Assembly: GCA_041752275.1 (NCBI GenBank)
Contig: JBGSHK010000012.1
Span: 18,346-82,345, forward strand
Source: Minisyncoccia bacterium
Lineage (GTDB): Bacteria > Patescibacteriota > Minisyncoccia > Phycocordibacterales > CAIZLB01
Length of the DNA stretch: 64,000 nt
Direction of reading: 5' to 3'
The position numbers were made by a program, and so were the translations under genes. Shown one piece after another: positions 1-41,887 of this stretch (positions are counted from its first letter, which is position 1; each line of letters begins with the position of its first letter). The notes beneath the pieces were generated by a model that was not told the DNA's origin, ran no database searches, and worked only from the letters and a program-made list of their open reading frames with translations.

Positions 1-232
1 TTTTAGGAGATTTATATAATCCCGAAATGTTAAATAGTGGTTTGTCTGATATATATACAAACTTTGATAATTTTACTGTTTCAGATGAAGGTATAAAATT
101 TATTTTTGGACAATATCAAGTTGCACCATATGCAGCAGGTCAGCCAGAAGTTTTTCTGAGTTGGTTGGAGTTAGAAAGTTTTTTAAAATAAAAATATCCT
201 CAGCAATAAATAATTTACTGAGGATATAGATG

Positions 233-29361: not shown

Positions 29362-29413
29362 AGGGTGTGACCCATATAGTGTTTCGCGCTGTGTGTAATG
29401 GTATAATATTAAT

Positions 29414-29782
29414 ATGAAAACAGCGACTCGACTTGATCCACTTTTGTGGGAATCATGTAAAAAAGAAGCATTGCACAAAATGGGAAAGTTTTCAGCGCGT
29501 GCAATGCAATATGCAGTTACATTATATAAAAAACAAGGTGGTAAATATTCTGGCATAAAAAGTCCTAAGAATAGTCTTACTCTTTGGGTCAAAGAAGATT
29601 GGGGATATGTAGGTGAAGAAAAACATAGTAGATATTTACCAAAGAAAGCTAAAGAAAGTTTAACTCGTGGAGAAAAAATAGCTACAGATAGAGCAAAAAA
29701 TGCAGGAACGCTTGCTCATAAACAATGGGTACCTCAACCAAAAAATATTGCAAAGAAGACGGCGAAGTTCAGGTTGAAGTAA
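29414..29782 (+). CDS. hypothetical basic protein
   Basis: 122-aa lysine-rich ORF. No motif recognised. Confidence 0.4.
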   Translation: MKTATRLDPLLWESCKKEALHKMGKFSARAMQYAVTLYKKQGGKYSGIKSPKNSLTLWVKEDWGYVGEEKHSRYLPKKAKESLTRGEKIATDRAKNAGTLAHKQWVPQPKNIAKKTAKFRLK

Positions 29783-29847
29783 TAATTAAAAGCTTTTCGA
29801 CTCTCCGTCGCAAGCAAAACTATTTGCTTGCTTGAAATCACCTACAG

Positions 29848-29878
29848 AAAAAGCTTCACTATTTAAGTGAAGCTTTTT
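29848..29878. terminator. bidirectional terminator
   Basis: 12-bp stem AAAAAGCTTCAC/GTGAAGCTTTTT between convergent genes. Confidence 0.65.
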
Positions 29879-29984
29879 CTTACCATGAGCCTTCTCGAGA
29901 TAGAACCCAGCGGTTCCTTACGGTGTAATGTTATTTATAATGATTTTAATATATCATAACGACCTTTCTCGAGCGATATTGGAT

Positions 29985-31271
29985 TTAAATCTTTTTTCTG
30001 CGTTTCTTTATATTATTCCTATCCCTAACCACACCTAATACTTGTTTGTCTATAGCTTGATTATTAATTATTTCCAGCGTTTTCTTAAAATAATTGTTTC
30101 TATTTTTTGTTTTCTTAACTATATCTTTTTTAGGACTCCTCCTAATTGGTTTTATGTTATTCAAAATCTGTTTTCTTGTCTTATTCATTTGCTTACGTTT
30201 CAATTTTTGAATCGTATTTTTTCTCAATAAGATATTTTTCCCATTGAATTCAAATCCAAGGTAGTCTACGTAATTACGGCTTTTTTGTTTATCTAATCCG
30301 TCCGTAACTTTTTCACATATTAAGCCCTCATTTATTTTTTTGAAGTACGATATATAGGATTTACTAGCGTTAATTTCTAGCCTAGATTCATTAATCTTAC
30401 TATTAATAAATAGCGATAAAGCATCTTTCTGGTCGGATCTACAAATGAAAACCAAATCATCACTGTATCTTCTGTAGAAAATATCAGGAAAGAAAGATTT
30501 CATAGCTAGATCAAAATCTATCATATACATATTTGCCAACAAACCACTTATTGGGCTGCCTTGTGGAATACCTATATTTTTTTTATTTTCATAAAGAATA
30601 CCTTTTAAACTATTATAAATTGCATACTTATTGTTCTTTGTCTTTCCTTTTATTTTTTTATCTATAAAATCTGAATATTCGATGTATCTATAGGCAGTCA
30701 GTGACCTAAATACTTTATAAAAAGATTCATCCAACTTTTCGATGTTGCAGATTGTACAAATCATCTTTTTAAGAATAGAGTGGTTTAAATTATCAAAAAA
30801 ACCAGTTATATCTTGGGTTATAATAATACACTCTGATTGAGTTTGTATATAGTCAAAGACTTCTTTTGCAAAGTGAATATTACTTTTGCCTTTGCTTGTG
30901 TCATGAAGTTTAATTTTCCTATACGCTGTTACATTGCTACTTATGTTTAAATCCTCAATGTATTTTTCATATTTTATCTGAAGAATATAGTTATAATAAC
31001 TGTAGATGTGCGCATCGAGATGAGATGCATACATTATTGGCCTTAATTTGGTTGATCGGCGTGTCTCACCATCTTTATCTTTACGAAAACGAATCTGAAT
31101 ATCCTCTCTTTTTATAAATGGTAAAAATTGATGATTTTTCATATCTTCTATGACATGAACCACTCTCTTAAATGTTTCGTCAATACCCAAATCCAAAGCA
31201 TCATCAATGTGCTGATATGTCCTCAGCTTCTTTTCTGGCTTTATTTGGTTTTTCCATTCTTGGTATGTCAT
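29985..31271 (-). CDS. reverse transcriptase (group II intron-like / retron- or defence-type, no endonuclease domain)
   Basis: RT motifs KLRPIMYASHLDAHI (1), ITQDITGFFDNLNH (2), GIPQGSPISGLLANMYM (3/4), YRRYSDDLVF (YxDD) and YLGFEF (7). Basic C-terminal tail with a possible degenerate NRNNYF maturase remnant. Confidence 0.85.
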   Translation of the reverse strand: MTYQEWKNQIKPEKKLRTYQHIDDALDLGIDETFKRVVHVIEDMKNHQFLPFIKREDIQIRFRKDKDGETRRSTKLRPIMYASHLDAHIYSYYNYILQIKYEKYIEDLNISSNVTAYRKIKLHDTSKGKSNIHFAKEVFDYIQTQSECIIITQDITGFFDNLNHSILKKMICTICNIEKLDESFYKVFRSLTAYRYIEYSDFIDKKIKGKTKNNKYAIYNSLKGILYENKKNIGIPQGSPISGLLANMYMIDFDLAMKSFFPDIFYRRYSDDLVFICRSDQKDALSLFINSKINESRLEINASKSYISYFKKINEGLICEKVTDGLDKQKSRNYVDYLGFEFNGKNILLRKNTIQKLKRKQMNKTRKQILNNIKPIRRSPKKDIVKKTKNRNNYFKKTLEIINNQAIDKQVLGVVRDRNNIKKRRKKI

Positions 31272-31788
31272 ATAGTAGACGCAAAGACCTCTTCCTTCAA
31301 ACCGTTAACATGGTTCGATCTTGGAAGAGGTCATTCAACAAATGTTGGCTTATATTCTATGGTCTCGCTTGTTTCCAAGCTAAGGTTAACTGATAACGTG
31401 TGTATAATAATTATAAACTTAATCAATTACATAAAGCAATTAAATATGATTCCATTCTTATACGATGTATTATTCAAGCTTACGCTCGAACATTCTTACG
31501 ACTGTGAGAGTTCCGCGAGCGGACTCTTGCATGTCGTTGATAACACTGGGACTAGCTCATCTGGGAAGATATAATGGTTAATATAAGTCAGGAACCATTG
31601 TTATATAGTTACCTATATAAGGTTACTTCTTAAAAGCTAGTAGCTTGATAATATCACATTATCTCCTAGAGAGCCATGCGTTACAATATATAAGGTTTCG
31701 CATATAAAATGAGACAAGATGGGACATATTTTCAGTATTCTGGATGTCTCACTTTAAAAGCTGATAATCCTTTGTTATCATTAAATAT

Positions 31789-32568
31789 ATGGGTAAATTC
31801 ACCGATAGCTATACAAAAATATTAGATTCGTACCACAAGGAAAGAAACACAGCGGTTTTCTATAAAACGCAGGGATTTAAAAAGCTCTGGAGGCTTGTTC
31901 AGGACCTTGTGCAAAAAGAAAGTTTTCAAAAATCTATTTTAAAGCTAAGAAAAGAATATCACATTCCAGCCAACGGTTTTGAAATAACAGAAAATCCTTC
32001 AACACATCCGCCAAGTGAATGGGAGTATTCAAATCCTTTTGGGGTAAAAATGAAAGAACTTGGAAGTATAAGGAAAAAGTTAATAAACTTATTTGTTGAT
32101 TACAGTCTACTGCCACAAGACTGGGTATCTGTTTTTGAGCAATACCTTTTTTATAACAAGTTATACCTACCTGTGAGTCCAAATTCGCACGATCTCTGTT
32201 TTGTAAGTGATTCTTTAACGAAAAAAGATTCGACAGGCAAGGATATATCGAAAGCAGAGATATCGACCTATCCCGTCACCTTACACATTAGTCCAGATGC
32301 CTCGAAACGTGACATTTTAGATTACGTAAAAAAGATTTTTAAAACTGAAATCGAACCAATGCAGAATACATACAAAAAGAAAAATTCTTCTGCTATTAAT
32401 TCCAGAAAGAGAAACCCTGTGATCCAACAAAGAAAAGAATTTATATATCAAAATCAAGATTGGTCACTGAAAGATATTCAGAAAGGACTTGAGAAAGAGA
32501 CTGGAGAAATCATAGATATTGGGCTTGTGGGAAAAATAAAGTCATTGGAAAATAAAAAAAGGGCTTAA
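31789..32568 (+). CDS. hypothetical protein (phage-like region)
   Basis: 259-aa ORF. No motif recognised. Confidence 0.45.
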   Translation: MGKFTDSYTKILDSYHKERNTAVFYKTQGFKKLWRLVQDLVQKESFQKSILKLRKEYHIPANGFEITENPSTHPPSEWEYSNPFGVKMKELGSIRKKLINLFVDYSLLPQDWVSVFEQYLFYNKLYLPVSPNSHDLCFVSDSLTKKDSTGKDISKAEISTYPVTLHISPDASKRDILDYVKKIFKTEIEPMQNTYKKKNSSAINSRKRNPVIQQRKEFIYQNQDWSLKDIQKGLEKETGEIIDIGLVGKIKSLENKKRA

Positions 32569-32649
32569 GTGTGGTCCACTTAATTCTTGTACTTATATAT
32601 AAATTTTTTATAAACTGGAATTATTATCAGTTATTTTGAAAATTTACAT

Positions 32650-33933
32650 ATGAAAAAACTTACATGGCATACCGAAAAAAGAATAGTTAGCAATCTTATT
32701 CCAAATGAGAAAAACCCTCGAAAAATTAGTGCAAAACAAATAGAAGACTTGAAAAAGAGCCTGAGGAAGTTTAACTTGGTTGAGATACCTGTTATTGATC
32801 AATCAAACAAAGTTATCGCAGGACACCAGCGTTTAATGGTTTTGAAGCTTCTCGGTCGAGAATTGGAAGAAATAGAAGTAAGGGTGCCCAATCGAAAACT
32901 TACGCAGAATGAGTATGATCAATACCTCATATCTTCAAATCGTATTCACGGAGAGTGGGATTGGGATATTCTCGGCAAGGAATTTGACTTAGATATACTT
33001 TCCATATCAGGTTTTGACGATATCGATCTCACTAAAATTGTTGATAACAGCTTTCGTGCAAAAGACGATGACTGGGACGATACAACAGAGTTGAAAAAAA
33101 TTAAATCTACCGAAATTAAGACAGGTAACATTTTTATGCTCGGTCGACATAGGCTAATTTGCGGGGATGCCACAGATAGGAATGTTGTCGATAAACTGAT
33201 GTCAGGTGCTAAAGCGAACATGATCAACCAAGATCCACCTTTTAACATTAAATTAGATTATAACAAAGGTGTTGGCGGAAAAAATACTAAAAAAGATTAC
33301 GGGGGCGAGGTCGATGACGGCAAGACGGATTCTGAATACTCTGAGTTCATACGAAAGATGATGGTTAACGCAATTTCGGTATCAAATAAAAATTGTCACG
33401 TGTTTTACTGGACAGACGAAAAGTACGTATGGCTTTTTCAAACTCTGTACAAAGAACTGGGGATAAATTCGAAACGTATCTGCCTTTGGATTAAGAACAA
33501 TGCGTCGCCCACTCCTCAGGTTGCTTTTAATAAGGTAACTGAATTTTGTGTGTATGGAACTATCGGTTCTCCATACCTGTCTAATAACGTTCAGAATCTG
33601 AATGAGATTATAAACCACGACACTACGACGGGAAATAATTTATTTGAAGAAATCAGCAACCATTTAAACGCATGGATGGTAAAAAGATTGCCAAGTAACC
33701 AGTATGAACATCCGACTCAAAAAAGTCCATTACTGCACAACAAGGCAATTCGCCGATGTACAAAAATAAATGACATAGTCCTTGACCTTACAGCAGGTTC
33801 AGGGAGCATTATGTCGGCATGTCACCAACTCAGACGGATTGCATACATGTGTGACCAGTCTCCTATATTTTGCCAGCTTATTATAAACAGATTCAAACAA
33901 ATCTCAAATGAAGAAGTTAAAAAAATCAACTAG
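32650..33933 (+). CDS. ParB-like nuclease domain fused to DNA N6-adenine/N4-cytosine methyltransferase
   Basis: N-terminal ParB box, central DPPF catalytic motif (NQDPPFNIK), C-terminal SAM motif I LDLTAGSGS (beta-class permutation). Confidence 0.8.
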   Translation: MKKLTWHTEKRIVSNLIPNEKNPRKISAKQIEDLKKSLRKFNLVEIPVIDQSNKVIAGHQRLMVLKLLGRELEEIEVRVPNRKLTQNEYDQYLISSNRIHGEWDWDILGKEFDLDILSISGFDDIDLTKIVDNSFRAKDDDWDDTTELKKIKSTEIKTGNIFMLGRHRLICGDATDRNVVDKLMSGAKANMINQDPPFNIKLDYNKGVGGKNTKKDYGGEVDDGKTDSEYSEFIRKMMVNAISVSNKNCHVFYWTDEKYVWLFQTLYKELGINSKRICLWIKNNASPTPQVAFNKVTEFCVYGTIGSPYLSNNVQNLNEIINHDTTTGNNLFEEISNHLNAWMVKRLPSNQYEHPTQKSPLLHNKAIRRCTKINDIVLDLTAGSGSIMSACHQLRRIAYMCDQSPIFCQLIINRFKQISNEEVKKIN

Positions 33934-34330
33934 CCAAATTAGGATTCAAAAAGAGAAATCAGCATTTCTGGAACAACTTAAACGCACGCCGATTATTCAG
34001 GTTGTCTGTGAAAAGATAAATATAGGGCGTGCAACCTTCTACCGTTGGAAATCCGATGATAGTATTTTTAGTCAGGCTGTCGAGGATGCTTTTTTAGAAG
34101 GACATCTTCTCGTGAATGATCTGGCAGAGTCGCAGCTAATCGGTGCGGTAAAAGACCGTAACCTATCCGCAATAACCTACTGGCTTAAGCACCACCACAA
34201 AGATTACAAAAATCGCATTGAAATTGAAGGAAATCTTAACACAATTCAAGAACTTTCGGCTGAACAAAAGGAGCTTGTACAAAAGGCACTTAGATTAGCA
34301 TCTTTAGATTTTAATCAACATGAAAAATAG
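33908..34330 (+). CDS. HTH protein, possible terminase small subunit
   Basis: Helix-turn-helix IGRATFYRWK. Sits directly upstream of the terminase large subunit and overlaps it. Confidence 0.45.
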   Translation: MKKLKKSTSQIRIQKEKSAFLEQLKRTPIIQVVCEKINIGRATFYRWKSDDSIFSQAVEDAFLEGHLLVNDLAESQLIGAVKDRNLSAITYWLKHHHKDYKNRIEIEGNLNTIQELSAEQKELVQKALRLASLDFNQHEK

Positions 34331-35792
34331 TGAAAATATTTTAGAGCAAGTAATGATGGATCGTGCAGTACGCCAAGCGGTTACCTGCAGGAGTCACATA
34401 ATGTTTTTCCATCTTTATTTTCCGCATTATGTTAAATATCCCATTGCCGAGTTCCAAAAGGAAATTTTTCAAATAACAGAAGACCAGTCAAATAAGCTTG
34501 CGTGCATTGTTGCGTTTCGAGGATCAGGAAAATCAACCCTGATCACATTATCATATTCGATATGGTCCATCTTGGGTATGCAACAAAAAAAGTTTGTACT
34601 TATTGTCTTTCAAACCCAATATCAAGCTAAACAGCAGATGATGAACATCAGACGCGAACTTGAGAGTAATAAAGTTCTAAGAAGTGACCTTGGTCCCTTT
34701 CAGGAAGATGTGGGTGGTGAATGGTCCTCTTTGTCCATAGTATTCAAAAACACAGGGGCAAGAATTATGATTGCGTCAATAGAGCAGAGTGTTCGAGGTG
34801 TTCGCCACAATGAACATCGTCCAGATCTTATTATATGTGACGATATCGAGGATTTAAACTCTTCACGCACACTCGAATCACGCAATAAAACATTTGACTG
34901 GTTTACACGCGAAATTGTTCCACTTGGAGACATTGCCACACGAATCATAATGATTGGAAACCTGCTACATGAGGACTCATTGATGATGAGACTTCGAAAA
35001 AAAATCGAATCGAAAGAGATGGAAGGTATTTTTAAATGGTTCCCACTTATTGCAAAAGACGGTCATTGCTTGTGGTCTGACAAATTTGACTCGCCAGCAA
35101 AAATAGAAAACCTTAGGCGAAGTGTCGCAAATGAGTTGGCTTGGCAACAGGAGTACTTGCTTAATATAATCTCCGATAACACTCGTGTAATATTTCCTGA
35201 GTGGATTCATACTTATTCAGACAGAGAATTGGTGCACATAAAACCAAACAGAATAATAATAGGTATTGACCTTGCTATTTCGCAGCAAAAAACGGCAGAC
35301 TACACTGCAATGGTTGCAATTAAGGTAATTGGTACAGGCATTTATAGAAAAATTTATGTTGTTCCAAATCCCATTAACAAGCGACTGACATTTCCTGATG
35401 TGATTACCAAAGTAAATGACCTCGAATTAGTTTTTAAGAGTCAAGGATCATACCCTGAATTTGTAATAGAATCTAATGGTTTCCAAGAAGTTTACCTGCA
35501 TCTCTTATGCAAAAAGATATCATCAATCAAAGGGGTAAAACATACAAACGATAAAAGATCTCGCCTTGCGATGGTAAGTACATTTATTCGTGAAGGTGTT
35601 ATAGTTTTTCCTGAATATGGGGCAAAGGATCTGATAACCCAACTGACAGGATTCGGAACTGAACATTACGACGATTTAGCAGATGCTTTTAGTATTGCGA
35701 TTATAGAGGTTTTAGGATCTATCGAGCATGAAAAAGATATGCAGTCTTGGAAAGACTGGGTAGAGAGTAATGGTGGCAGTTGTGCCATATAA
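34320..35792 (+). CDS. phage terminase large subunit
   Basis: Walker A FRGSGKST, Walker B LIICDDIEDL, C-terminal RNaseH-like nuclease region with acidic residues. 490 aa. Confidence 0.75.
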   Translation: MKNSENILEQVMMDRAVRQAVTCRSHIMFFHLYFPHYVKYPIAEFQKEIFQITEDQSNKLACIVAFRGSGKSTLITLSYSIWSILGMQQKKFVLIVFQTQYQAKQQMMNIRRELESNKVLRSDLGPFQEDVGGEWSSLSIVFKNTGARIMIASIEQSVRGVRHNEHRPDLIICDDIEDLNSSRTLESRNKTFDWFTREIVPLGDIATRIIMIGNLLHEDSLMMRLRKKIESKEMEGIFKWFPLIAKDGHCLWSDKFDSPAKIENLRRSVANELAWQQEYLLNIISDNTRVIFPEWIHTYSDRELVHIKPNRIIIGIDLAISQQKTADYTAMVAIKVIGTGIYRKIYVVPNPINKRLTFPDVITKVNDLELVFKSQGSYPEFVIESNGFQEVYLHLLCKKISSIKGVKHTNDKRSRLAMVSTFIREGVIVFPEYGAKDLITQLTGFGTEHYDDLADAFSIAIIEVLGSIEHEKDMQSWKDWVESNGGSCAI

Positions 35793-35804
35793 GATTCTGC
35801 GATA

Positions 35805-36434
35805 CTAGTTTAGCTTTGCCTTTGTAACGCAAACATTGTTGAGATTACCTTTTGCACCTTCTAGTCTTAAGAAATCACAAATTTTTGAAGAATCAAAGTT
35901 TTTCCAATTAATCTTTTGATAAGTTTCTTTGTCTATTGACTGAGACATTAAGACTTGGTTTTTTGTATTACCATAGTTGTCGGTAATATCGGCATAATAC
36001 CAAACTATAACATCATAAGCATTCGGATTTGATGAAAATGTTTCTTGGAATATCTTTCCTGTAAGCTCACCTGTATTTCGATAAAAAGAATCTGAACTCA
36101 AGAAGCTTGATACGTTAAGTTTTACAACTATCATACGAGATCCTTGAGGTCTATTACTGTCGGCTTTGGTATCTTCGATAGAATTGAATGAAATTTTTGT
36201 GACCCCTATTTTATTTGTTAATTCCCTAATCCTACCTTCAAAAGTTTGTGAGGTTGTAGCCATCGCCAAATGGTCAACCTCATTGTTTTTAACTGGCTCT
36301 TTCTTTGAAACTCCAATGCTTACAGAAAATATTATTATTAATATAATAACTACCGCCGTTGCGACTGGATGATTTTTAATCTGTTCCGTTGCTTTTTCGG
36401 CACGAGCTGTGCCTGTTGATTTATTTGAATTCAT
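35805..36434 (-). CDS. hypothetical membrane-anchored protein
   Basis: N-terminal TM helix. 209 aa. Confidence 0.4.
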   Translation of the reverse strand: MNSNKSTGTARAEKATEQIKNHPVATAVVIILIIIFSVSIGVSKKEPVKNNEVDHLAMATTSQTFEGRIRELTNKIGVTKISFNSIEDTKADSNRPQGSRMIVVKLNVSSFLSSDSFYRNTGELTGKIFQETFSSNPNAYDVIVWYYADITDNYGNTKNQVLMSQSIDKETYQKINWKNFDSSKICDFLRLEGAKGNLNNVCVTKAKLN

Positions 36435-36785
36435 AATTTTGCTTGATCGTCTTAAAATTATTTGATAATAATGATGTGTTTTCTGTTGTATACAAAAAGC
36501 CCATCACGGGTAAGGACCGAGGTCCTTCGTACCAGTTTCCCGATACGGCGATCAAGCAAAACCCCATGACGGGTTCTTTACACTTGATCGACTTTAGACC
36601 ATATCCTTTAACTTATATTAAAGGGGTTAGGTCACAATTTGGTTGTAATTCCATAATACTTTATTTGAAAGTATTAGTCTATATTGTATCGCAGAATATG
36701 GCTTTTGCTAAGCCATAACGACCATGTAATAAAACTGTTGTTTTGCATAGCTATGCACCATGGGTGGATGCGACATTATTAATAT

Positions 36786-38069
36786 ATGACCGACATAGAA
36801 CAAACAGATCTAAAATATTGTCTATATGCACGTAAATCGACTGAGGGTGATGAAAAACAAGCCCTCTCTATAGATTCACAGATCAAGGAAATGTTACAAA
36901 TTGCGGAACGTGAAAATATAAAAATTGTTGAGATTAGGAAAGAATCTCATTCGGCAAAAGAATCAAGCCAAAGACCTGTATTTGAAGAAATAGTTAAAGA
37001 TATAGATGGTGGTATTTTCAATTCAATCATAACTTGGGCACCTGATAGACTTTCTCGTAATGCGGGTGATCTTGGAAAATTAGTAGACAGGATGGATCAA
37101 AAGAAACTAATACAGATCAAAACTTTTGGTCAAAATTTTACCAATTCACCAAGTGACAAGTTCCTGTTGATGATTTTATGTTCTCAGGCAAAGCTGGAGA
37201 ATGATAATAAGAGCATCAATGTGAAGCGTGGTATGAGAACACGATGTGAGATGGGTTTATGGCCTGCACAACCTCCTACAGGGTATAGGAAAGTAAATGA
37301 TATAAAAGCAAAATGTGAAGTTGAAATCGATCCTGATAGGTTCGATACTATACGTCAAATATTTGAAAAAATTTCATATGAAAAATGGAGTGTATCTAAG
37401 GTTCACGCATGGTTACGATATGAAATTAACTTCAGAACACAACGTGGCTTTCATTTGAGTATCGGTAATGTATTTAAAATAATTAATAATACATTTTATT
37501 ATGGTCGCTTTGAATTTCCACAAGGTGCGGGTATTTGGTATGAGGGTAGGCATAAACCAATAATCAGTAAAGAGTTATTTGATGAGACAAGAAATTCAGT
37601 CAAATCTCAGGTTATAAAATCACAAGGTAAAGAATTTGCTTTTACAAGAATTATGAAATGTGGAATTTGTGGATCTGGTATCACTGCTGATGAGAAGTTT
37701 AAAAAGATACAGAATGGCGGGGTTAATAGATATGTGTATTATCGATGCACAAAAGCAAAAGATAGAGGTTGTAACAATTCTGCAATAAATGAAGATAATC
37801 TTCTTAAAGAATTTCAAAAAATGGCAAATGTATTAGACCTTCATGAAGTACATTTGACTGAAAAATTAAATATAGAAATTAAGAAATTCAAAAAACTTCA
37901 AGCTATGTTTTTAGATATAGAAAATACAGTAGAAGTGCAGAAAGTAGATTTAAGGAATTATTTAAAATTTATCTTAAAAGATGGAACAATCTTGGAGAGA
38001 CGCTCCATACTTGATTGTATTAAAAATAGCTTAGTTTTAAAAAATGCAGTCCTCACTATTCAAGAATAA
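36786..38069 (+). CDS. large serine recombinase (resolvase/integrase family)
   Basis: N-terminal catalytic domain YARKSTEGDE...SIDSQ with the active-site Ser. Recombinase domain and zinc ribbon CGICGSG...YYRC. Confidence 0.85.
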   Translation: MTDIEQTDLKYCLYARKSTEGDEKQALSIDSQIKEMLQIAERENIKIVEIRKESHSAKESSQRPVFEEIVKDIDGGIFNSIITWAPDRLSRNAGDLGKLVDRMDQKKLIQIKTFGQNFTNSPSDKFLLMILCSQAKLENDNKSINVKRGMRTRCEMGLWPAQPPTGYRKVNDIKAKCEVEIDPDRFDTIRQIFEKISYEKWSVSKVHAWLRYEINFRTQRGFHLSIGNVFKIINNTFYYGRFEFPQGAGIWYEGRHKPIISKELFDETRNSVKSQVIKSQGKEFAFTRIMKCGICGSGITADEKFKKIQNGGVNRYVYYRCTKAKDRGCNNSAINEDNLLKEFQKMANVLDLHEVHLTEKLNIEIKKFKKLQAMFLDIENTVEVQKVDLRNYLKFILKDGTILERRSILDCIKNSLVLKNAVLTIQE

Positions 38070-41734: not shown

Positions 41735-41759
41735 CGAGAGCTCGAACTAGCTCTCTCTT
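41735..41759 (+). terminator. terminator hairpin
   Basis: Stem GAGAGCT/AGCTCTC with a 6-nt loop, then TCTTT. Confidence 0.4.
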
Positions 41760-41791
41760 TGGTGACCCCACGGACTTTGGTGACCCCACGG
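41757..41791. repeat. tandem direct duplication (17 nt x2) of the tRNA-Glu 3' end
   Basis: TTTGGTGACCCCACGGA occurs twice in tandem. The second copy runs into the intact tRNA. Confidence 0.7.
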
Positions 41792-41851
41792 AGAGTCGAA
41801 CTCCGCTTAACAGATTGAAAACCTGCTGTCCTAACCGATAGACGATGGGGC
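41777..41851 (-). tRNA. tRNA-Glu(UUC)
   Basis: Reverse complement folds. Acceptor GGCCCCA/TGGGGTC, D-loop with GG, anticodon loop UUUUCAA, T-arm CGGAG-TTCGACT-CTCCG, CCA encoded. Confidence 0.8.
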
Positions 41852-41887
41852 CTTATTTATCTGTTGTATTATAACAACAAATGAGAT

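What the first reader, a model, noticed from the sequence alone, without database searches (positions are those of the whole stretch)
29985..31788. Stand-alone reverse transcriptase with a 517-bp structured non-coding leader: retron/defence-RT-like candidate
The 428-aa RT has all seven RT motifs (QGxxSP, YSDD) and a basic tail but no endonuclease. It is not a DGR-type RT, whose signature differs (see rejected items). It is preceded on its own strand by an unusually long 517-bp non-coding region in an otherwise compact genome.

That region contains a 10-bp inverted repeat that sequesters the RBS (GACCTCTTCC...GGAAGAGGTC, 31286-31332), several other palindromes (AAGCTAGTAGCTT at 31634-31646; TGATAA...TTATCA at 31762-31780) and a stop-free frame of more than 100 codons on the antisense strand (31272-31574). 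That is improbable by chance at this AT content.

This layout, a non-coding RNA immediately 5' of a single RT gene inside a phage-like island, is what retrons and single-gene defence RTs (DRT2/DRT9-like, which make cDNA from a ncRNA template) look like. The main alternative is a group IIC intron. Those are about 420-aa ORFs lacking the endonuclease domain and insert next to terminator hairpins. The region does have about 500 nt 5' and 200 nt 3' of the ORF, next to hairpins, and a possible degenerate maturase NYF motif. But I could not find a domain V or a GUGYG 5' end. No exact family match is claimed.
Basis: partly seen in the sequence, partly recalled or inferred. Interest (0 to 1): 0.7.

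Follow-up and report, generated by a model that had tools for sequence, protein, structure and literature searches.

The report
Divergent DRT2 defence reverse transcriptase with hidden gene
This is an anti-phage DRT2 system in a Parcubacteria (CPR) genome: a reverse transcriptase and an upstream ~363-nt structured RNA that appears built to be copied round and round into repetitive DNA, assembling a promoter and an endless 49-codon gene found nowhere in the linear genome; the kind of system is known, but this lineage's RNA and peptide are not described.

Summary
The 428-aa RT (29985-31271, minus strand), the 517-bp gene-free leader, the 10-bp inverted repeat and the long antisense open frame are all present.

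The RT is a DRT2 (UG2) enzyme: PADLOC Drt2 E=2e-107, and Klebsiella DRT2 structure 9c0i E=2e-50. It is not a group II intron, retron or DRT9.

About 363 nt of the leader (about 31641-31279, minus strand) is a conserved non-coding RNA, found upstream of the RT in 14 further distinct loci. Covariation supports a 5' domain, four template hairpins, a 3' scaffold and two pseudoknots.

An unbiased scan places the template at 31544-31398. It is bounded by a direct repeat (GTTATCA twice in the window). Unit lengths are 138-162 nt, always a multiple of 3. The antisense frame across head-to-tail copies is stop-free in 15/15 sequences. The junction creates TTGCAT-17 nt-TATAAT, followed by an in-frame ATG.

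This is the published DRT2 "neo" mechanism (rolling-circle reverse transcription), here inferred rather than measured. The lineage differs in several ways: Rfam RT-12 does not match the RNA, the 5' domain is larger with a long-range pseudoknot, the border motif is not ACA, and the 49-aa peptide shows no evident similarity to the one canonical Neo unit I derived.

Verdict: a well-supported new variant of a known kind, of moderate interest.

The parts
29985..31271 (-). DRT2-type reverse transcriptase gene (428 aa)
   Evidence: ORF. PADLOC Drt2 358 bits, E=2.3e-107. NCBIfam Drt2 319 bits, below its 390 cut-off. PDB 9c0i (Klebsiella DRT2) E=2.3e-50 over residues 14-377.
31648..31676 (-). Promoter of the ncRNA-RT transcript: TGGCTC, 17 nt, TATTAT, with TG at 31656-31655 (extended -10). 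Start predicted about 31641.
   Evidence: Sequence. The TGnTAnnnT box and a TTGnnn box 17 nt upstream are aligned in the homologues. The start site is inferred.
31279..31641 (-). Conserved non-coding RNA (about 363 nt; ends +/- a few nt)
   Evidence: Alignments A2 and A3 of 13-14 homologues. nhmmer hits upstream of the RT in 19 loci, 14 of them distinct. 85% of cells paired against 36-41% in slid controls, and 53 pairs with compensatory changes against 18-25. MFE z = -6.5.
31545..31641 (-). 5' domain. P1: 31641-31634 with 31558-31551. P1b: 31629-31626 with 31568-31565. P2: 31620-31615 with 31606-31601. P3: 31599-31593 with 31579-31573.
   Evidence: Coordinates. P1 is 97% paired with 3 covarying pairs. 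P2 and P3 covary but are less well aligned.
31580..31587 (-). PK1, 5' strand: CUUAUAUU in the P3 loop. It pairs with AAUAUAAG at 31356-31349 in the 3' scaffold.
   Evidence: 94% of cells paired, 4 of 8 pairs with compensatory change. The window itself carries a compensated G-C to A-U change.
31349..31356 (-). PK1, 3' strand (AAUAUAAG)
31538..31544 (-). 5' copy of the border direct repeat GUUAUCA. These are the first 7 nt of the template and the proposed take-off site.
   Evidence: Of the 13 sequences of A2, 11 share at least 3 nt at both borders (GUU/GUUAU in most); L093 shares 2 nt and L004 none. Both copies change to GUA/GUAA together in L092 and L099.
31398..31544 (-). Template (147 nt) with four internal hairpins. 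T1: 31537-31533/31502-31498. T2: 31527-31520/31515-31507. T3: 31491-31484/31479-31472. T4: 31441-31436/31430-31425.
   Evidence: Best column pair in an unbiased scan: 13/13 lengths are multiples of 3 and open. L094 (162 nt) and L096 (138 nt) fit too. Hairpins covary.
31398..31544 (+). One 'neo-like' unit as read on the cDNA sense strand: 49 codons, VCIIIINLINYIKQLNMIPFLYDVLFKLTLEHSYDCESSASGLLHVVDN.
   Evidence: Frame 0 of the circular unit has no stop in 15/15 homologous sequences. In the 13 sequences of A2 the other two frames have 2-7 stops each.
31403..31408 (+). -10 box TATAAT of the junction promoter, 5 nt after the unit start
   Evidence: TATAAT, TATAGT, TATACT, TAAGAT or TAGAAT sits at the same place in all homologues.
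31527..31532 (+). -35 box TTGCAT of the junction promoter, 12 nt before the unit end. It is 17 nt from the -10 only after head-to-tail joining.
   Evidence: TTGCAx or TTGACx with a 17-nt spacer across the junction in 15/15. CAAG is invariant in the RNA. The linear plus strand 31272-31700 has no TTGnnn-16..18-TAnnnT.
31446..31448 (+). In-frame ATG of the neo-like ORF, 37 nt after the -10
   Evidence: Read from the sequences, every one of the 13 homologues has an in-frame ATG downstream of the -10.
31391..31397 (-). 3' copy of the direct repeat GUUAUCA, just outside the template. Proposed landing site for the nascent cDNA end.
31396..31399 (-). S0, 5' strand: ACGU at the template's 3' border. 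It pairs with GCGU at 31282-31279 near the RNA's 3' end. Proposed self-priming duplex.
   Evidence: 95% paired, with one compensatory C-G to U-A change in L094. The priming role is inferred from Klebsiella DRT2, where the ncRNA 3' end is the primer (PMC12039810).
31279..31390 (-). 3' scaffold. PK2: GUUAAC 31390-31385 with GUUAAC 31309-31304. S1: 31384-31364. S2: 31348-31335. S3: 31332-31323 with 31295-31286. S4: 31316-31312 with 31303-31299. UUUGCGU tail.
   Evidence: for coordinates. PK2 92% paired with 3 covarying pairs; S3 and S4 100% paired. Covariance model R1 scores 128.5 bits here.
29846..29880 (-). Terminator hairpin after the RT gene, shared with the convergent gene 29414-29782
   Evidence: AGAAAAAGCTTCACTTAAATAGTGAAGCTTTTTCT.

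Best explanation
This is a two-part DRT2 anti-phage system, an RT plus its upstream non-coding RNA, in a Parcubacteria genome.

**Proposed mechanism**
1. One promoter (about 31676-31648) transcribes the RNA and the RT together.
2. The RNA folds into three parts: a 5' domain, a 147-nt template carrying four hairpins, and a 3' scaffold. Two pseudoknots lock the fold. PK1 ties the 5' domain to the scaffold, so that the template is looped out between them. PK2 joins the strand just after the template to a scaffold hairpin loop.
3. The RT binds the scaffold through its long basic C-terminal region.
4. The RNA's own 3' end (UUUGCGU) pairs with ACGU at the template's 3' border and primes DNA synthesis.
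5. The RT copies 31398 to 31544. On reaching the 5' copy of GUUAUCA, the new DNA end (...TGATAAC) re-pairs with the identical 3' copy at 31397-31391, and copying starts again. This gives head-to-tail 147-nt repeats.
6. After phage infection the DNA becomes double-stranded.
7. Each junction then forms TTGCAT-17 nt-TATAAT. Transcripts start upstream of the ATG at 31446 and encode a stop-less repeat of 49 residues.
8. That product arrests the infected cell.

**Shown here**
- the family of the RT;
- the conserved RNA and its fold;
- the template borders and repeat;
- unit lengths in multiples of 3;
- the open frame;
- the junction promoter;
- the start codon.

**Inferred from the Klebsiella system**
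- binding, priming and jumping;
- the phage trigger;
- second-strand synthesis, expression and toxicity.
For: **RT family**
- PADLOC Drt2 scores 358 bits; the next family (UG39) scores 84.
- The best solved structure is Klebsiella DRT2 9c0i, E=2.3e-50; the next hit is at 1e-8.

**Conserved RNA**
- Every homologous locus examined has a 338-510-nt gene-free gap upstream of the RT.
- Conservation starts at a TGnTAnnnT box and runs to the RT ATG.
- nhmmer finds the RNA in 19 loci, 14 of them distinct, down to 45% RT identity.

**Structure**
- 85% of cells are paired against 36-41% in slid controls.
- 53 pairs show compensatory changes against 18-25 in controls, and 0/500 shuffles reach the observed values.
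- Both pseudoknots covary. Folding z = -6.5.

**Template**
- In a scan of all column pairs, the top pair gives units of 147, 147, 147, 144, 150, 147, 150, 150, 147, 144, 147, 147 and 138 nt.
- All 13 have an open antisense circular frame, and 11/13 have the same 3-mer at both borders.
- L094 (162 nt) and L096 (138 nt) also fit.
- The border repeat changes in both copies together in L092 and L099.
- In the 13 sequences of A2 the other frames carry 2-7 stops per unit.
- 13 of 15 gap runs inside the template are multiples of 3, and the two exceptions sum to 21. Outside it the figure is 11 of 44.
- Column pairs with 13/13 open number 1622 on the antisense strand, all within columns 102-312, against 12 on the sense strand.

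**Junction**
- TTGCAx or TTGACx, exactly 17 nt, then TAnnnT in 15/15.
- This promoter is absent from the linear sequence.
- An in-frame ATG lies downstream of the -10 in all 13 sequences.

**Method control**
- On an NCBI-annotated drt2 of Photobacterium, one candidate from the same single-locus rules gives a 111-nt unit with TTGACA-17-TATAAT. This was not the top-ranked candidate; I picked it out by its junction promoter. The length is one reported for canonical DRT2 (PMC12039810).

**Defence context**
- Homologues sit inside a type I R-M operon or beside methylases and MutH.

**Mechanism source**
- bioRxiv 10.1101/2024.05.08.593200 and PMC12039810.
Against: - There are no experimental data for this lineage. 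Every step after RNA folding is by analogy.
- The RT scores below NCBIfam's curated Drt2 cut-off (319 against 390).
- The RNA is not recognised by Rfam RT-12, the model that hits canonical DRT2 scaffolds.
- The border motif is GUU(A/U), not the published ACA. L004 has no exact repeat at the aligned columns and L093 has only 2 nt.
- No Shine-Dalgarno sequence precedes the ATG. The RT gene has none at usual spacing either.
- Codon-position variability is nearly flat (0.38/0.36/0.41). Selection on the peptide cannot be separated from selection on the RNA.
- The peptide shows no evident similarity to the Photobacterium unit, compared by eye only.
- As a single-locus pattern the combination is not specific: about 40 chance loci in this window. 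The case rests on comparison between homologues.
Confidence: 0.85

Rival explanations
1. The RT and RNA are a DRT2-family pair and do make repetitive cDNA. The effector, however, is the DNA or RNA itself, for example as a sponge or decoy, and not a translated peptide. On this view the open frame and promoter-like boxes are by-products of RNA-level constraints.
For: - Codon positions vary almost equally.
- No Shine-Dalgarno sequence precedes the ATG.
- The peptide shows no evident similarity to the one canonical Neo unit I derived.
Against: - RNA structure alone does not explain why every length change in the template is a multiple of 3, while the flanking structured domains take 1-, 2- and 4-nt indels.
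- It does not explain why only one antisense frame is open in 15/15 sequences.
- It does not explain why a -35/-10 pair keeps an exact 17-nt spacing across the junction.
Confidence: 0.08
2. The element is a group IIC intron whose ORF lacks the endonuclease domain. The 5' and 3' flanks would then be ribozyme domains.
For: The ORF size (428 aa) and the lack of an endonuclease domain fit. Hairpins lie nearby. The group II RT/maturase model gives a weak hit (80 bits).
Against: - 80 bits is far below the 300-bit cut-off, and the Drt2 models score 319-358 bits.
- No group II domain of any kind appears at E<=10 in 29400-32000.
- Nothing conserved lies 3' of the ORF; in homologues the next gene starts 13 nt after the stop.
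- The upstream RNA has its own promoter and a different, covariation-supported fold.
Confidence: 0.01
3. The element is a retron. The leader would be an msr-msd RNA giving branched multicopy single-stranded DNA.
For: The layout is a non-coding RNA immediately 5' of a single RT gene. Retron RT models give weak hits (E about 1e-10).
Against: - Retron models score 38-40 bits, and NF038233 has a cut-off of 235.
- The RT is about 100 aa longer than retron RTs (my own knowledge).
- The conserved coding-like antisense template with a junction promoter has no counterpart in retrons.
Confidence: 0.01
4. The plus-strand ORF 31128-31574 (148 aa) is an ordinary gene overlapping the RT start. The leader would not be an RNA gene at all.
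For: A 148-aa ORF is listed. The open frame of 149 codons is unusual at 33% G+C.
Against: - Outside the 49-codon template the frame is interrupted in most homologues, with only 6-43 open codons upstream of the unit.
- No promoter is found for it on the linear plus strand.
- The region shows base-pair covariation on the minus strand.
Confidence: 0.02

Closest known systems
Klebsiella pneumoniae DRT2 (KpnDRT2). Sources: Tang et al., bioRxiv 10.1101/2024.05.08.593200; Wilkinson et al., PMC12039810; PDB 9c0i.
   Same: - A single RT gene is preceded on the same strand by a non-coding RNA transcribed from one promoter.
- The RT is homologous (E=2.3e-50 over residues 14-377).
- The template carries internal hairpins and lies between a 5' element and a roughly 125-nt 3' scaffold that contains a pseudoknot.
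- Short identical sequences sit at the template's 5' end and just past its 3' end.
- The unit length is a multiple of 3.
- One antisense frame is stop-free.
- The -10 lies near the cDNA 5' end and the -35 near its 3' end, 17 nt apart only across the junction.
- An in-frame ATG follows the -10.
   Different: - The RNA is about 363 nt, against 281.
- The 5' element is a 97-nt, three-stem domain, against a 28-nt hairpin. It is tied to the scaffold by an 8-bp long-range pseudoknot (PK1). I found no equivalent of PK1 in the passages of the two papers that I read.
- The unit is 138-162 nt (147 here), against 111-129.
- The border repeat is GUU(A/U), up to 9 nt, against ACA.
- Here the promoter boxes lie 12 nt before and 5 nt after the junction. 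In the Photobacterium locus they lie 4 nt before and 13 nt after it.
- The 49-aa peptide shows no evident similarity to the Photobacterium unit.
- The host is a Parcubacteria (CPR) bacterium, not a proteobacterium.
Rfam RF03016 'RT-12 RNA' (Weinberg et al. 2017, PMC5737381). In my tests it is the 3' scaffold of canonical DRT2 RNAs.
   Same: - The position is the same: it ends just before the RT start codon.
- The topology is the same. A single strand right after the template pairs with the loop of the inner hairpin of the last, long hairpin. That is GCGGC/GCCGC in RT-12 and GUUAAC/GUUAAC (PK2) here.
- Two shorter hairpins lie in between.
   Different: - RT-12 hits Photobacterium drt2 (72.9 bits) and 8 of 20 distant DRT2 loci.
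- It hits none of the 14 loci of this lineage nor the window at E<=10.
- My model of this lineage's scaffold finds nothing convincing in 80 other DRT2 loci.
- The two are at best very distant relatives.
DRT9, DRT10 and telomerase-like defence RTs (PMC12483538, PMC12632851)
   Same: Each is an RT plus adjacent non-coding RNA that makes repetitive DNA by repeated use of one template.
   Different: Those systems are protein-primed and make homopolymers or short tandem repeats, not a gene-sized coding unit (abstracts). The Drt9 model scores 60 bits here, against 358 for Drt2.
Group IIC introns and retrons
   Same: Both have an RT of similar size without an endonuclease domain, with structured RNA next to the gene.
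   Different: No ribozyme domains are found. The RT models score far below their cut-offs. The RNA lies only 5' of the gene and carries a coding-like antisense template.

Membership tests
DRT2 (UG2) defence system | The RT belongs to the DRT2/UG2 clade | tested here: met
   PADLOC Drt2 models score 358 and 254 bits; the next family scores 84 bits. The best PDB match is DRT2 9c0i at E=2.3e-50; the next is at 1e-8.
DRT2 (UG2) defence system | The RT passes NCBIfam NF041746 (Drt2 equivalog) at its curated cut-off | tested here: not met
   319.1 bits against a cut-off of 390. This is a threshold of one model built on the canonical clade. It explains why database copies are named only 'reverse transcriptase domain-containing' or 'hypothetical'.
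DRT2 (UG2) defence system | A conserved structured non-coding RNA lies directly upstream on the RT strand, with no partner protein gene | tested here: met
   Alignments. Covariation. Neighbouring genes differ from locus to locus.
DRT2 (UG2) defence system | The RNA scaffold matches the canonical DRT2 RNA model (Rfam RT-12) | tested here: not met
   No hit at E<=10 in the window or at gathering score in 14 related loci, while canonical loci do hit. The topology is nonetheless the same.
DRT2 (UG2) defence system | The template is bordered by a short direct repeat that allows the nascent cDNA to jump back (ACA-1/ACA-2 in KpnDRT2) | tested here: met
   GUUAUCA occurs twice in the window. A repeat of at least 3 nt is present in 11/13, and it changes in both copies together in L092 and L099. 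The motif is not ACA, and it is weak or absent in L093 and L004.
DRT2 (UG2) defence system | The repeat unit length is a multiple of 3, with one stop-free antisense frame through the junction | tested here: met
   15/15 sequences, with units of 138-162 nt. Indel statistics. Sense-strand control.
DRT2 (UG2) defence system | -35 and -10 boxes are out of order in the genome and correctly spaced only across the repeat junction, followed by an in-frame start codon | tested here: met
   TTGCAx or TTGACx, 17 nt, TAnnnT in 15/15. Absent from the linear strand. ATG at 31446.
DRT2 (UG2) defence system | Concatemeric cDNA is actually made, second-strand synthesis is phage-triggered, the peptide is toxic and phage defence results | not testable with these tools
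   This needs expression and sequencing. A scan of viral contigs for the junction 23-mer found nothing, which is uninformative.
Group II intron (class C) | RT/maturase passing TIGR04416, and ribozyme domains I-VI flanking the ORF | tested here: not met
   80.3 bits against a cut-off of 300. No group II family at E<=10 in 29400-32000. No conserved 3' flank.
Retron | Retron-type RT | tested here: not met
   NF038233 scores 37.9 bits against a cut-off of 235. PADLOC retron RT scores 39.5 bits. No msr/msd family matched in Rfam.
DRT9 | Drt9-type RT | tested here: not met
   59.9 bits, against 358 for Drt2.

The most novel reading that the evidence does not exclude
This Parcubacterial lineage may be an independent elaboration of the DRT2 principle. 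Its hidden gene would encode a 49-residue, rather hydrophobic repeat unrelated to the Klebsiella-type Neo. Its enlarged 5' domain, tied to the scaffold by pseudoknot PK1, would act as an extra control on template access or jumping. If so, 'neo' genes are not one protein family but a platform on which different toxic repeats have evolved. The recurrent neighbour, the LOOT RNA, might mark the mobile elements that spread them.
Probability: 0.25. Interest if true: 0.6.

Novelty: new variant of a known kind. Interest (0 to 1): 0.42.

Why it matters
DRT2 is the textbook-bending case in which a cell writes a gene that its genome does not contain in linear form.

- **Reach of the mechanism.** The published work established it for the Klebsiella-type clade. 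It stated that in divergent clades the hidden gene could not be readily annotated, leaving open whether they work differently. Here a lineage only about 35% identical to the Klebsiella RT keeps every sequence-level requirement: border repeat, multiple-of-3 unit, open frame, junction promoter and start codon. This holds although its RNA escapes the Rfam model that hits canonical DRT2 RNAs. That argues the mechanism is older and wider than the characterised clade.
- **A second RNA and peptide.** The lineage offers a second, differently built RNA: an extra 5' domain, a long-range pseudoknot, and a probable primer duplex formed by the RNA's own 3' end. It also offers a second peptide for comparison.
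- **Host.** It places such a system in ultra-small CPR bacteria, apparently on serine-recombinase mobile elements.
- **Annotation.** Standard annotation misses both the RNA and the gene, and names the RT only generically.

Tried and rejected
1. **Rfam over the whole window and over 29400-32000 at E<=10.** Nothing relevant at the locus: no group II, retron or RT-n motif.
2. **Search of viral contigs for relatives of the RT.** None found. A scan for the predicted junction 23-mer also found none. Both are uninformative.
3. **Covariance model of the 3' scaffold (R1) against 80 more distant DRT2 loci.**
   - With default filters: no hit.
   - With filters off, on seven loci: only marginal matches. 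The best-placed is L006 2365-2472, E=0.075, just upstream of its RT.
   - I therefore cannot show sequence-level homology to canonical DRT2 RNAs.
4. **A full-length covariance model.** Not attempted, because the alignment exceeds the 400-column limit.
5. **Single-locus scan of the whole window for the four features together.** About 40 loci pass, mostly inside genes. I do not use this as evidence.
6. **Third-codon-position excess as proof of peptide selection.** Not seen (0.38/0.36/0.41).
7. **The idea that the >100-codon open frame as a whole is meaningful.** Rejected, because the extension beyond the template is not conserved.
8. **The idea that the 10-bp inverted repeat hides the RT's ribosome-binding site.** Not supported: GAGG is 16 nt from the ATG, and the hairpin is a conserved scaffold element.
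9. **Attachment-site repeats that would delimit the island.** None convincing.
10. **ORFs downstream of LOOT RNAs in six loci.** They are not homologous to each other.
11. **Cluster look-up for the source organism's name.** No names returned. The host was instead inferred from LepA, 96% identical to a 'Candidatus Parcubacteria bacterium' protein.
12. **A 2026 preprint that mentions DRT2 RNAs.** It could not be opened.


Full report
**1. What is in the sequence**

The minus strand carries a 428-aa ORF at 29985-31271, with the RT motifs IPQGSPISG and YRRYSDDL and a lysine/arginine-rich last third. The nearest upstream gene starts at 31789 on the other strand, so 31272-31788 (517 bp) is gene-free.

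- the inverted repeat GACCTCTTCC/GGAAGAGGTC at 31332-31323 and 31295-31286;
- the palindromes at 31634-31646 and 31762-31780;
- a plus-strand frame with no stop between 31122 and 31572.

**2. The enzyme**

- Against anti-phage defence models, the protein scores 358 bits (E=2e-107) on PADLOC Drt2. The next family scores 84 bits.
- NCBIfam's Drt2 model gives 319 bits, under its curated 390 cut-off.
- The group II RT/maturase model gives 80 bits (cut-off 300). A retron model gives 38 bits (cut-off 235).
- The best solved structure is the Klebsiella pneumoniae DRT2 RT (9c0i and others), E=2.3e-50 over residues 14-377. Everything else is at 1e-8 or worse.

This is a divergent DRT2 enzyme, not a group II, retron or DRT9 enzyme.

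**3. What DRT2 systems are known to do**

Two papers cover this (bioRxiv 10.1101/2024.05.08.593200; PMC12039810).
- The Klebsiella RT binds a 281-nt RNA encoded just upstream.
- It copies a 120-nt template again and again, because the new DNA end re-pairs with a short sequence repeated at the template's two borders (ACA-1/ACA-2).
- After infection the product becomes double-stranded.
- A -35 box near the end of one repeat and a -10 box near the start of the next then form a promoter.
- The transcript encodes a stop-less ORF (neo), antisense to the RNA, whose product stops growth.
- Unit lengths are always multiples of 3.
- The RNA's own 3' end is the primer.
- Tang et al. add that in divergent clades RNAs could be predicted, but Neo annotation 'was more challenging'.

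**4. A conserved RNA**

*Relatives.* A protein search gave 1928 relatives. A close group of 45-76% identity comes almost entirely from metagenomes, and the few that carry names read 'Patescibacteria group bacterium'. I fetched DNA for these and for about 80 more distant relatives.

*The gap.* Every close relative has 338-510 nt without a gene in front of the RT, while the flanking genes differ from locus to locus. The upstream regions align from a TGnTAnnnT box (an extended -10, with TTGnnn 17 nt before it) right down to the RT start. A profile finds the region in 19 loci, 14 of them distinct.

*Coordinates in the window.* The promoter is TGGCTC-17-TATTAT at 31676-31648, and the RNA runs from about 31641 to about 31279.

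*Fold.* Alone it folds at -99.9 kcal/mol, 6.5 standard deviations below shuffles.

*Structure test.* I derived a structure from the RNAalifold consensus plus two long-range pairings seen by eye, then tested it on 14 sequences.
- 85% of cells form standard pairs, against 36-41% when partners are slid by 1-3 columns.
- 53 of 98 pairs show changes on both sides, against 18-25 in those controls.
- No shuffle out of 500 reaches the observed values.

*Elements.*
- A 5' domain: P1 at 31641-31634 with 31558-31551, enclosing P1b, P2 and P3.
- Four hairpins in the middle (T1-T4).
- PK1: the P3 loop CUUAUAUU (31587-31580) with AAUAUAAG (31356-31349).
- PK2: GUUAAC (31390-31385) with the S4 loop GUUAAC (31309-31304).
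- S0: a 4-bp stem, ACGU (31399-31396) with GCGU (31282-31279).

PK1 and PK2 are paired in 94% and 92% of cells, and each has 3-4 covarying pairs. The window itself carries a compensated change in PK1.

**5. The template and the hidden gene**

*The scan.* Without assuming borders, I scored every pair of alignment columns. The score was the number of the 13 sequences in which the enclosed length is a multiple of 3 and the head-to-tail antisense copy has an open frame, with equality of the 3-mers at the two borders noted.

*The result.*
- The best pair gives units of 147, 147, 147, 144, 150, 147, 150, 150, 147, 144, 147, 147 and 138 nt. All 13 are open, and 11 of 13 have equal 3-mers.
- In the window this is 31544-31398, with GUUAUCA at 31544-31538 and again at 31397-31391.
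- Other sequences have GUU or GUUAU. L092 and L099 have GUA/GUAA in both copies. L093 has only 2 nt and L004 none.
- Two more distant sequences found only by the profile also fit: L094 at 162 nt and L096 at 138 nt.

*Supporting counts.*
- Frame 0 has no stop in any sequence. In the 13 sequences of A2 the other frames have 2-7 stops per unit.
- Inside the template, 13 of 15 distinct gap runs are multiples of 3, and the two exceptions, 17 and 4, sum to 21. Outside it, 11 of 44 are.
- Column pairs that satisfy all 13 sequences number 1622 on the antisense strand, all between columns 102 and 312. On the sense strand there are 12.

*The junction.*
- Read on the plus strand, the junction of two units is ...CTC TTGCAT GTCGTTGATAAC | GTGTG TATAAT AATT...
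- This is a -35 and a -10 box separated by exactly 17 nt, in all 15 sequences (TTGCAx or TTGACx; TATAAT, TATAGT, TATACT, TAAGAT or TAGAAT).
- The invariant CAAG of the RNA is the TTG of the -35.
- In the linear genome the two boxes are in the wrong order, and no TTGnnn-16..18-TAnnnT exists on that strand between 31272 and 31700.

*The start codon and the unit.*
- An in-frame ATG follows at 31446-31448.
- Read from the sequences, every one of the 13 homologues has an in-frame ATG after the -10.
- The unit reads VCIIIINLINYIKQLNMIPFLYDVLFKLTLEHSYDCESSASGLLHVVDN.

**6. Controls and limits**

- On a Photobacterium plasmid gene that NCBI names drt2, one candidate from the same single-locus rules gives a 111-nt unit with TTGACA-17-TATAAT. 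It was not the top-ranked candidate; I chose it by its junction promoter. The length is one reported for the canonical clade.
- Applied blindly to the whole window, however, the single-locus rules pass about 40 places, mostly inside genes. The argument rests on conservation across homologues, not on the window alone.
- The part of the open frame that runs beyond the template, down to 31125, is not conserved.
- Codon positions vary almost equally. The peptide's own selection cannot be separated from the RNA's.

**7. How it most likely works**

The sequence-level requirements are met, so I take the Klebsiella mechanism as the model.
1. The RNA and RT are transcribed together.
2. The RT holds the 3' scaffold with its long basic C-terminal region.
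3. S0 places the RNA's 3' end (UUUGCGU) on ACGU at the template's 3' border, so that extension would begin GTGTG...
4. Synthesis runs 147 nt to the 5' GUUAUCA.
5. The end ...TGATAAC re-pairs with the 3' GUUAUCA. That copy sits as a short single strand between S0 and PK2.
6. The cycle repeats.
7. PK1 and P1 hold the two ends of the template close together. This would favour the jump.
8. Infection triggers double-stranding, the junction promoters fire, and the endless 49-codon repeat is translated and arrests the cell.

Steps 2-8 are inference.

**8. Relation to what is known**

- Rfam's RT-12 motif, listed in 2017 among 19 RNA motifs found near RT genes, with retron or DGR roles suggested for some, hits the Photobacterium drt2 leader and 8 of 20 distant DRT2 loci right before the RT. 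It is therefore the canonical DRT2 scaffold.
- It hits neither the window nor any of 14 loci of this lineage. My scaffold model does not find the canonical ones either.
- Yet the topology is the same: the strand just after the template pairs with the loop of the inner hairpin of the terminal long hairpin.
- Differences are the 97-nt 5' domain with PK1, the longer unit, the non-ACA border repeat, a different placement of the promoter boxes relative to the junction, and a peptide with no evident similarity to the Photobacterium unit.

**9. Setting**

- LepA in the window is 96% identical to a 'Candidatus Parcubacteria bacterium' protein.
- On the side where the RNA begins lie, in order: an unknown gene, a ParB-methyltransferase, small and large terminase genes, an unknown gene, a LOOT RNA, and a large serine recombinase.
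- Three homologous loci also have a serine recombinase directly upstream of the RNA. One has the system inside a type I restriction-modification operon. Two sit beside methylases and MutH.
- This fits a defence gene carried on mobile elements.

**10. Verdict**

It is a DRT2 system whose RNA and hidden gene can be read from sequence comparison. The kind is known, but this lineage's RNA and peptide are not described in the literature and databases I could search. Interest is moderate.

Noticed in passing
window 36512-36633 (-); L092 4375-4494; L094 4374-4501; L097 6014-6138; L099 755-876; L002 1060-1172: LOOT RNA (Rfam RF03000, function unknown) recurs near this DRT2 lineage, on the RT's strand in all 6 cases. 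It lies 58-87 nt after the RT stop in L092 and L094, and 5.2 kb away in the window, 150 nt from a serine recombinase gene. The ORFs that follow it are not homologous to each other. It may mark the ends or cargo sites of serine-recombinase elements, or be their integration target.
   Followed up: partly
window 31789-38069: A small mobile-element-like block: an unknown 259-aa gene, a ParB-N6/N4 methyltransferase (32650-33933), small and large terminase (33908-35792), an unknown gene, a LOOT RNA, and a large serine recombinase (36786-38069). No capsid or tail genes were recognised among the ten ORFs scanned, which reach 39833. It may be a satellite or a decayed prophage. L092 shares recombinase, ParB-methyltransferase and DRT2.
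   Followed up: partly
L100 543-655, and L011, L013, L016, L017, L019, L020, L022, L025: The Rfam family RT-12 (RF03016), still described only as 'RT-12 RNA', sits immediately upstream of DRT2 genes and corresponds to the 3' scaffold of the canonical DRT2 RNA. Its 5' single strand GCGGC can pair with the GCCGC hairpin loop.
   Followed up: partly
L096 1-7091: In one homologue the RNA-RT pair is inserted inside a type I restriction-modification operon, in the order hsdM, NYN, hsdS, RNA-RT, hsdR. The RT's end overlaps the start of hsdR.
   Followed up: no
L001 (JAHFPP010000082.1): The closest relative (76% identity, same RNA) is on a 2.9-kb contig binned as 'Candidatus Woesearchaeota archaeon'. 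The bacterial-type promoters in the RNA and at the junction suggest a binning error rather than an archaeal DRT2.
   Followed up: no
window 41757-41792: An 18-nt sequence, CTTTGGTGACCCCACGGA, is duplicated in tandem, overlapping the 3' end of tRNA-Glu (41778-41852, minus strand). It looks like the scar of an integration or excision at this tRNA.
   Followed up: no
window 31125-31397 (+): In the window, L001 and L084 the neo frame stays open for a further 43 codons upstream of the unit, to the end of the aligned stretch; in the window it runs on to the stop at 31122, through the scaffold and into the antisense of the RT start. In the other homologues it closes after 6-41 codons. This is probably chance in one lineage.
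   Followed up: yes
window 31762-31780: The palindrome TGATAA-7 nt-TTATCA lies 9 nt upstream of the 31789 gene, overlapping a plus-strand promoter-like site (31753-31781). It is outside the conserved RNA. It may be an operator of the divergent gene.
   Followed up: no
L100 (Photobacterium damselae plasmid pPHDD1) 436-546: The annotated drt2 on this conjugative plasmid has a predicted 111-nt unit with border repeat AGAT, junction TTGACA-17-TATAAT and unit peptide LEMIYNVICDGDYTMVILRFMTMCLSWLCKDKVIDNL. The border motif already varies within the canonical type.
   Followed up: partly
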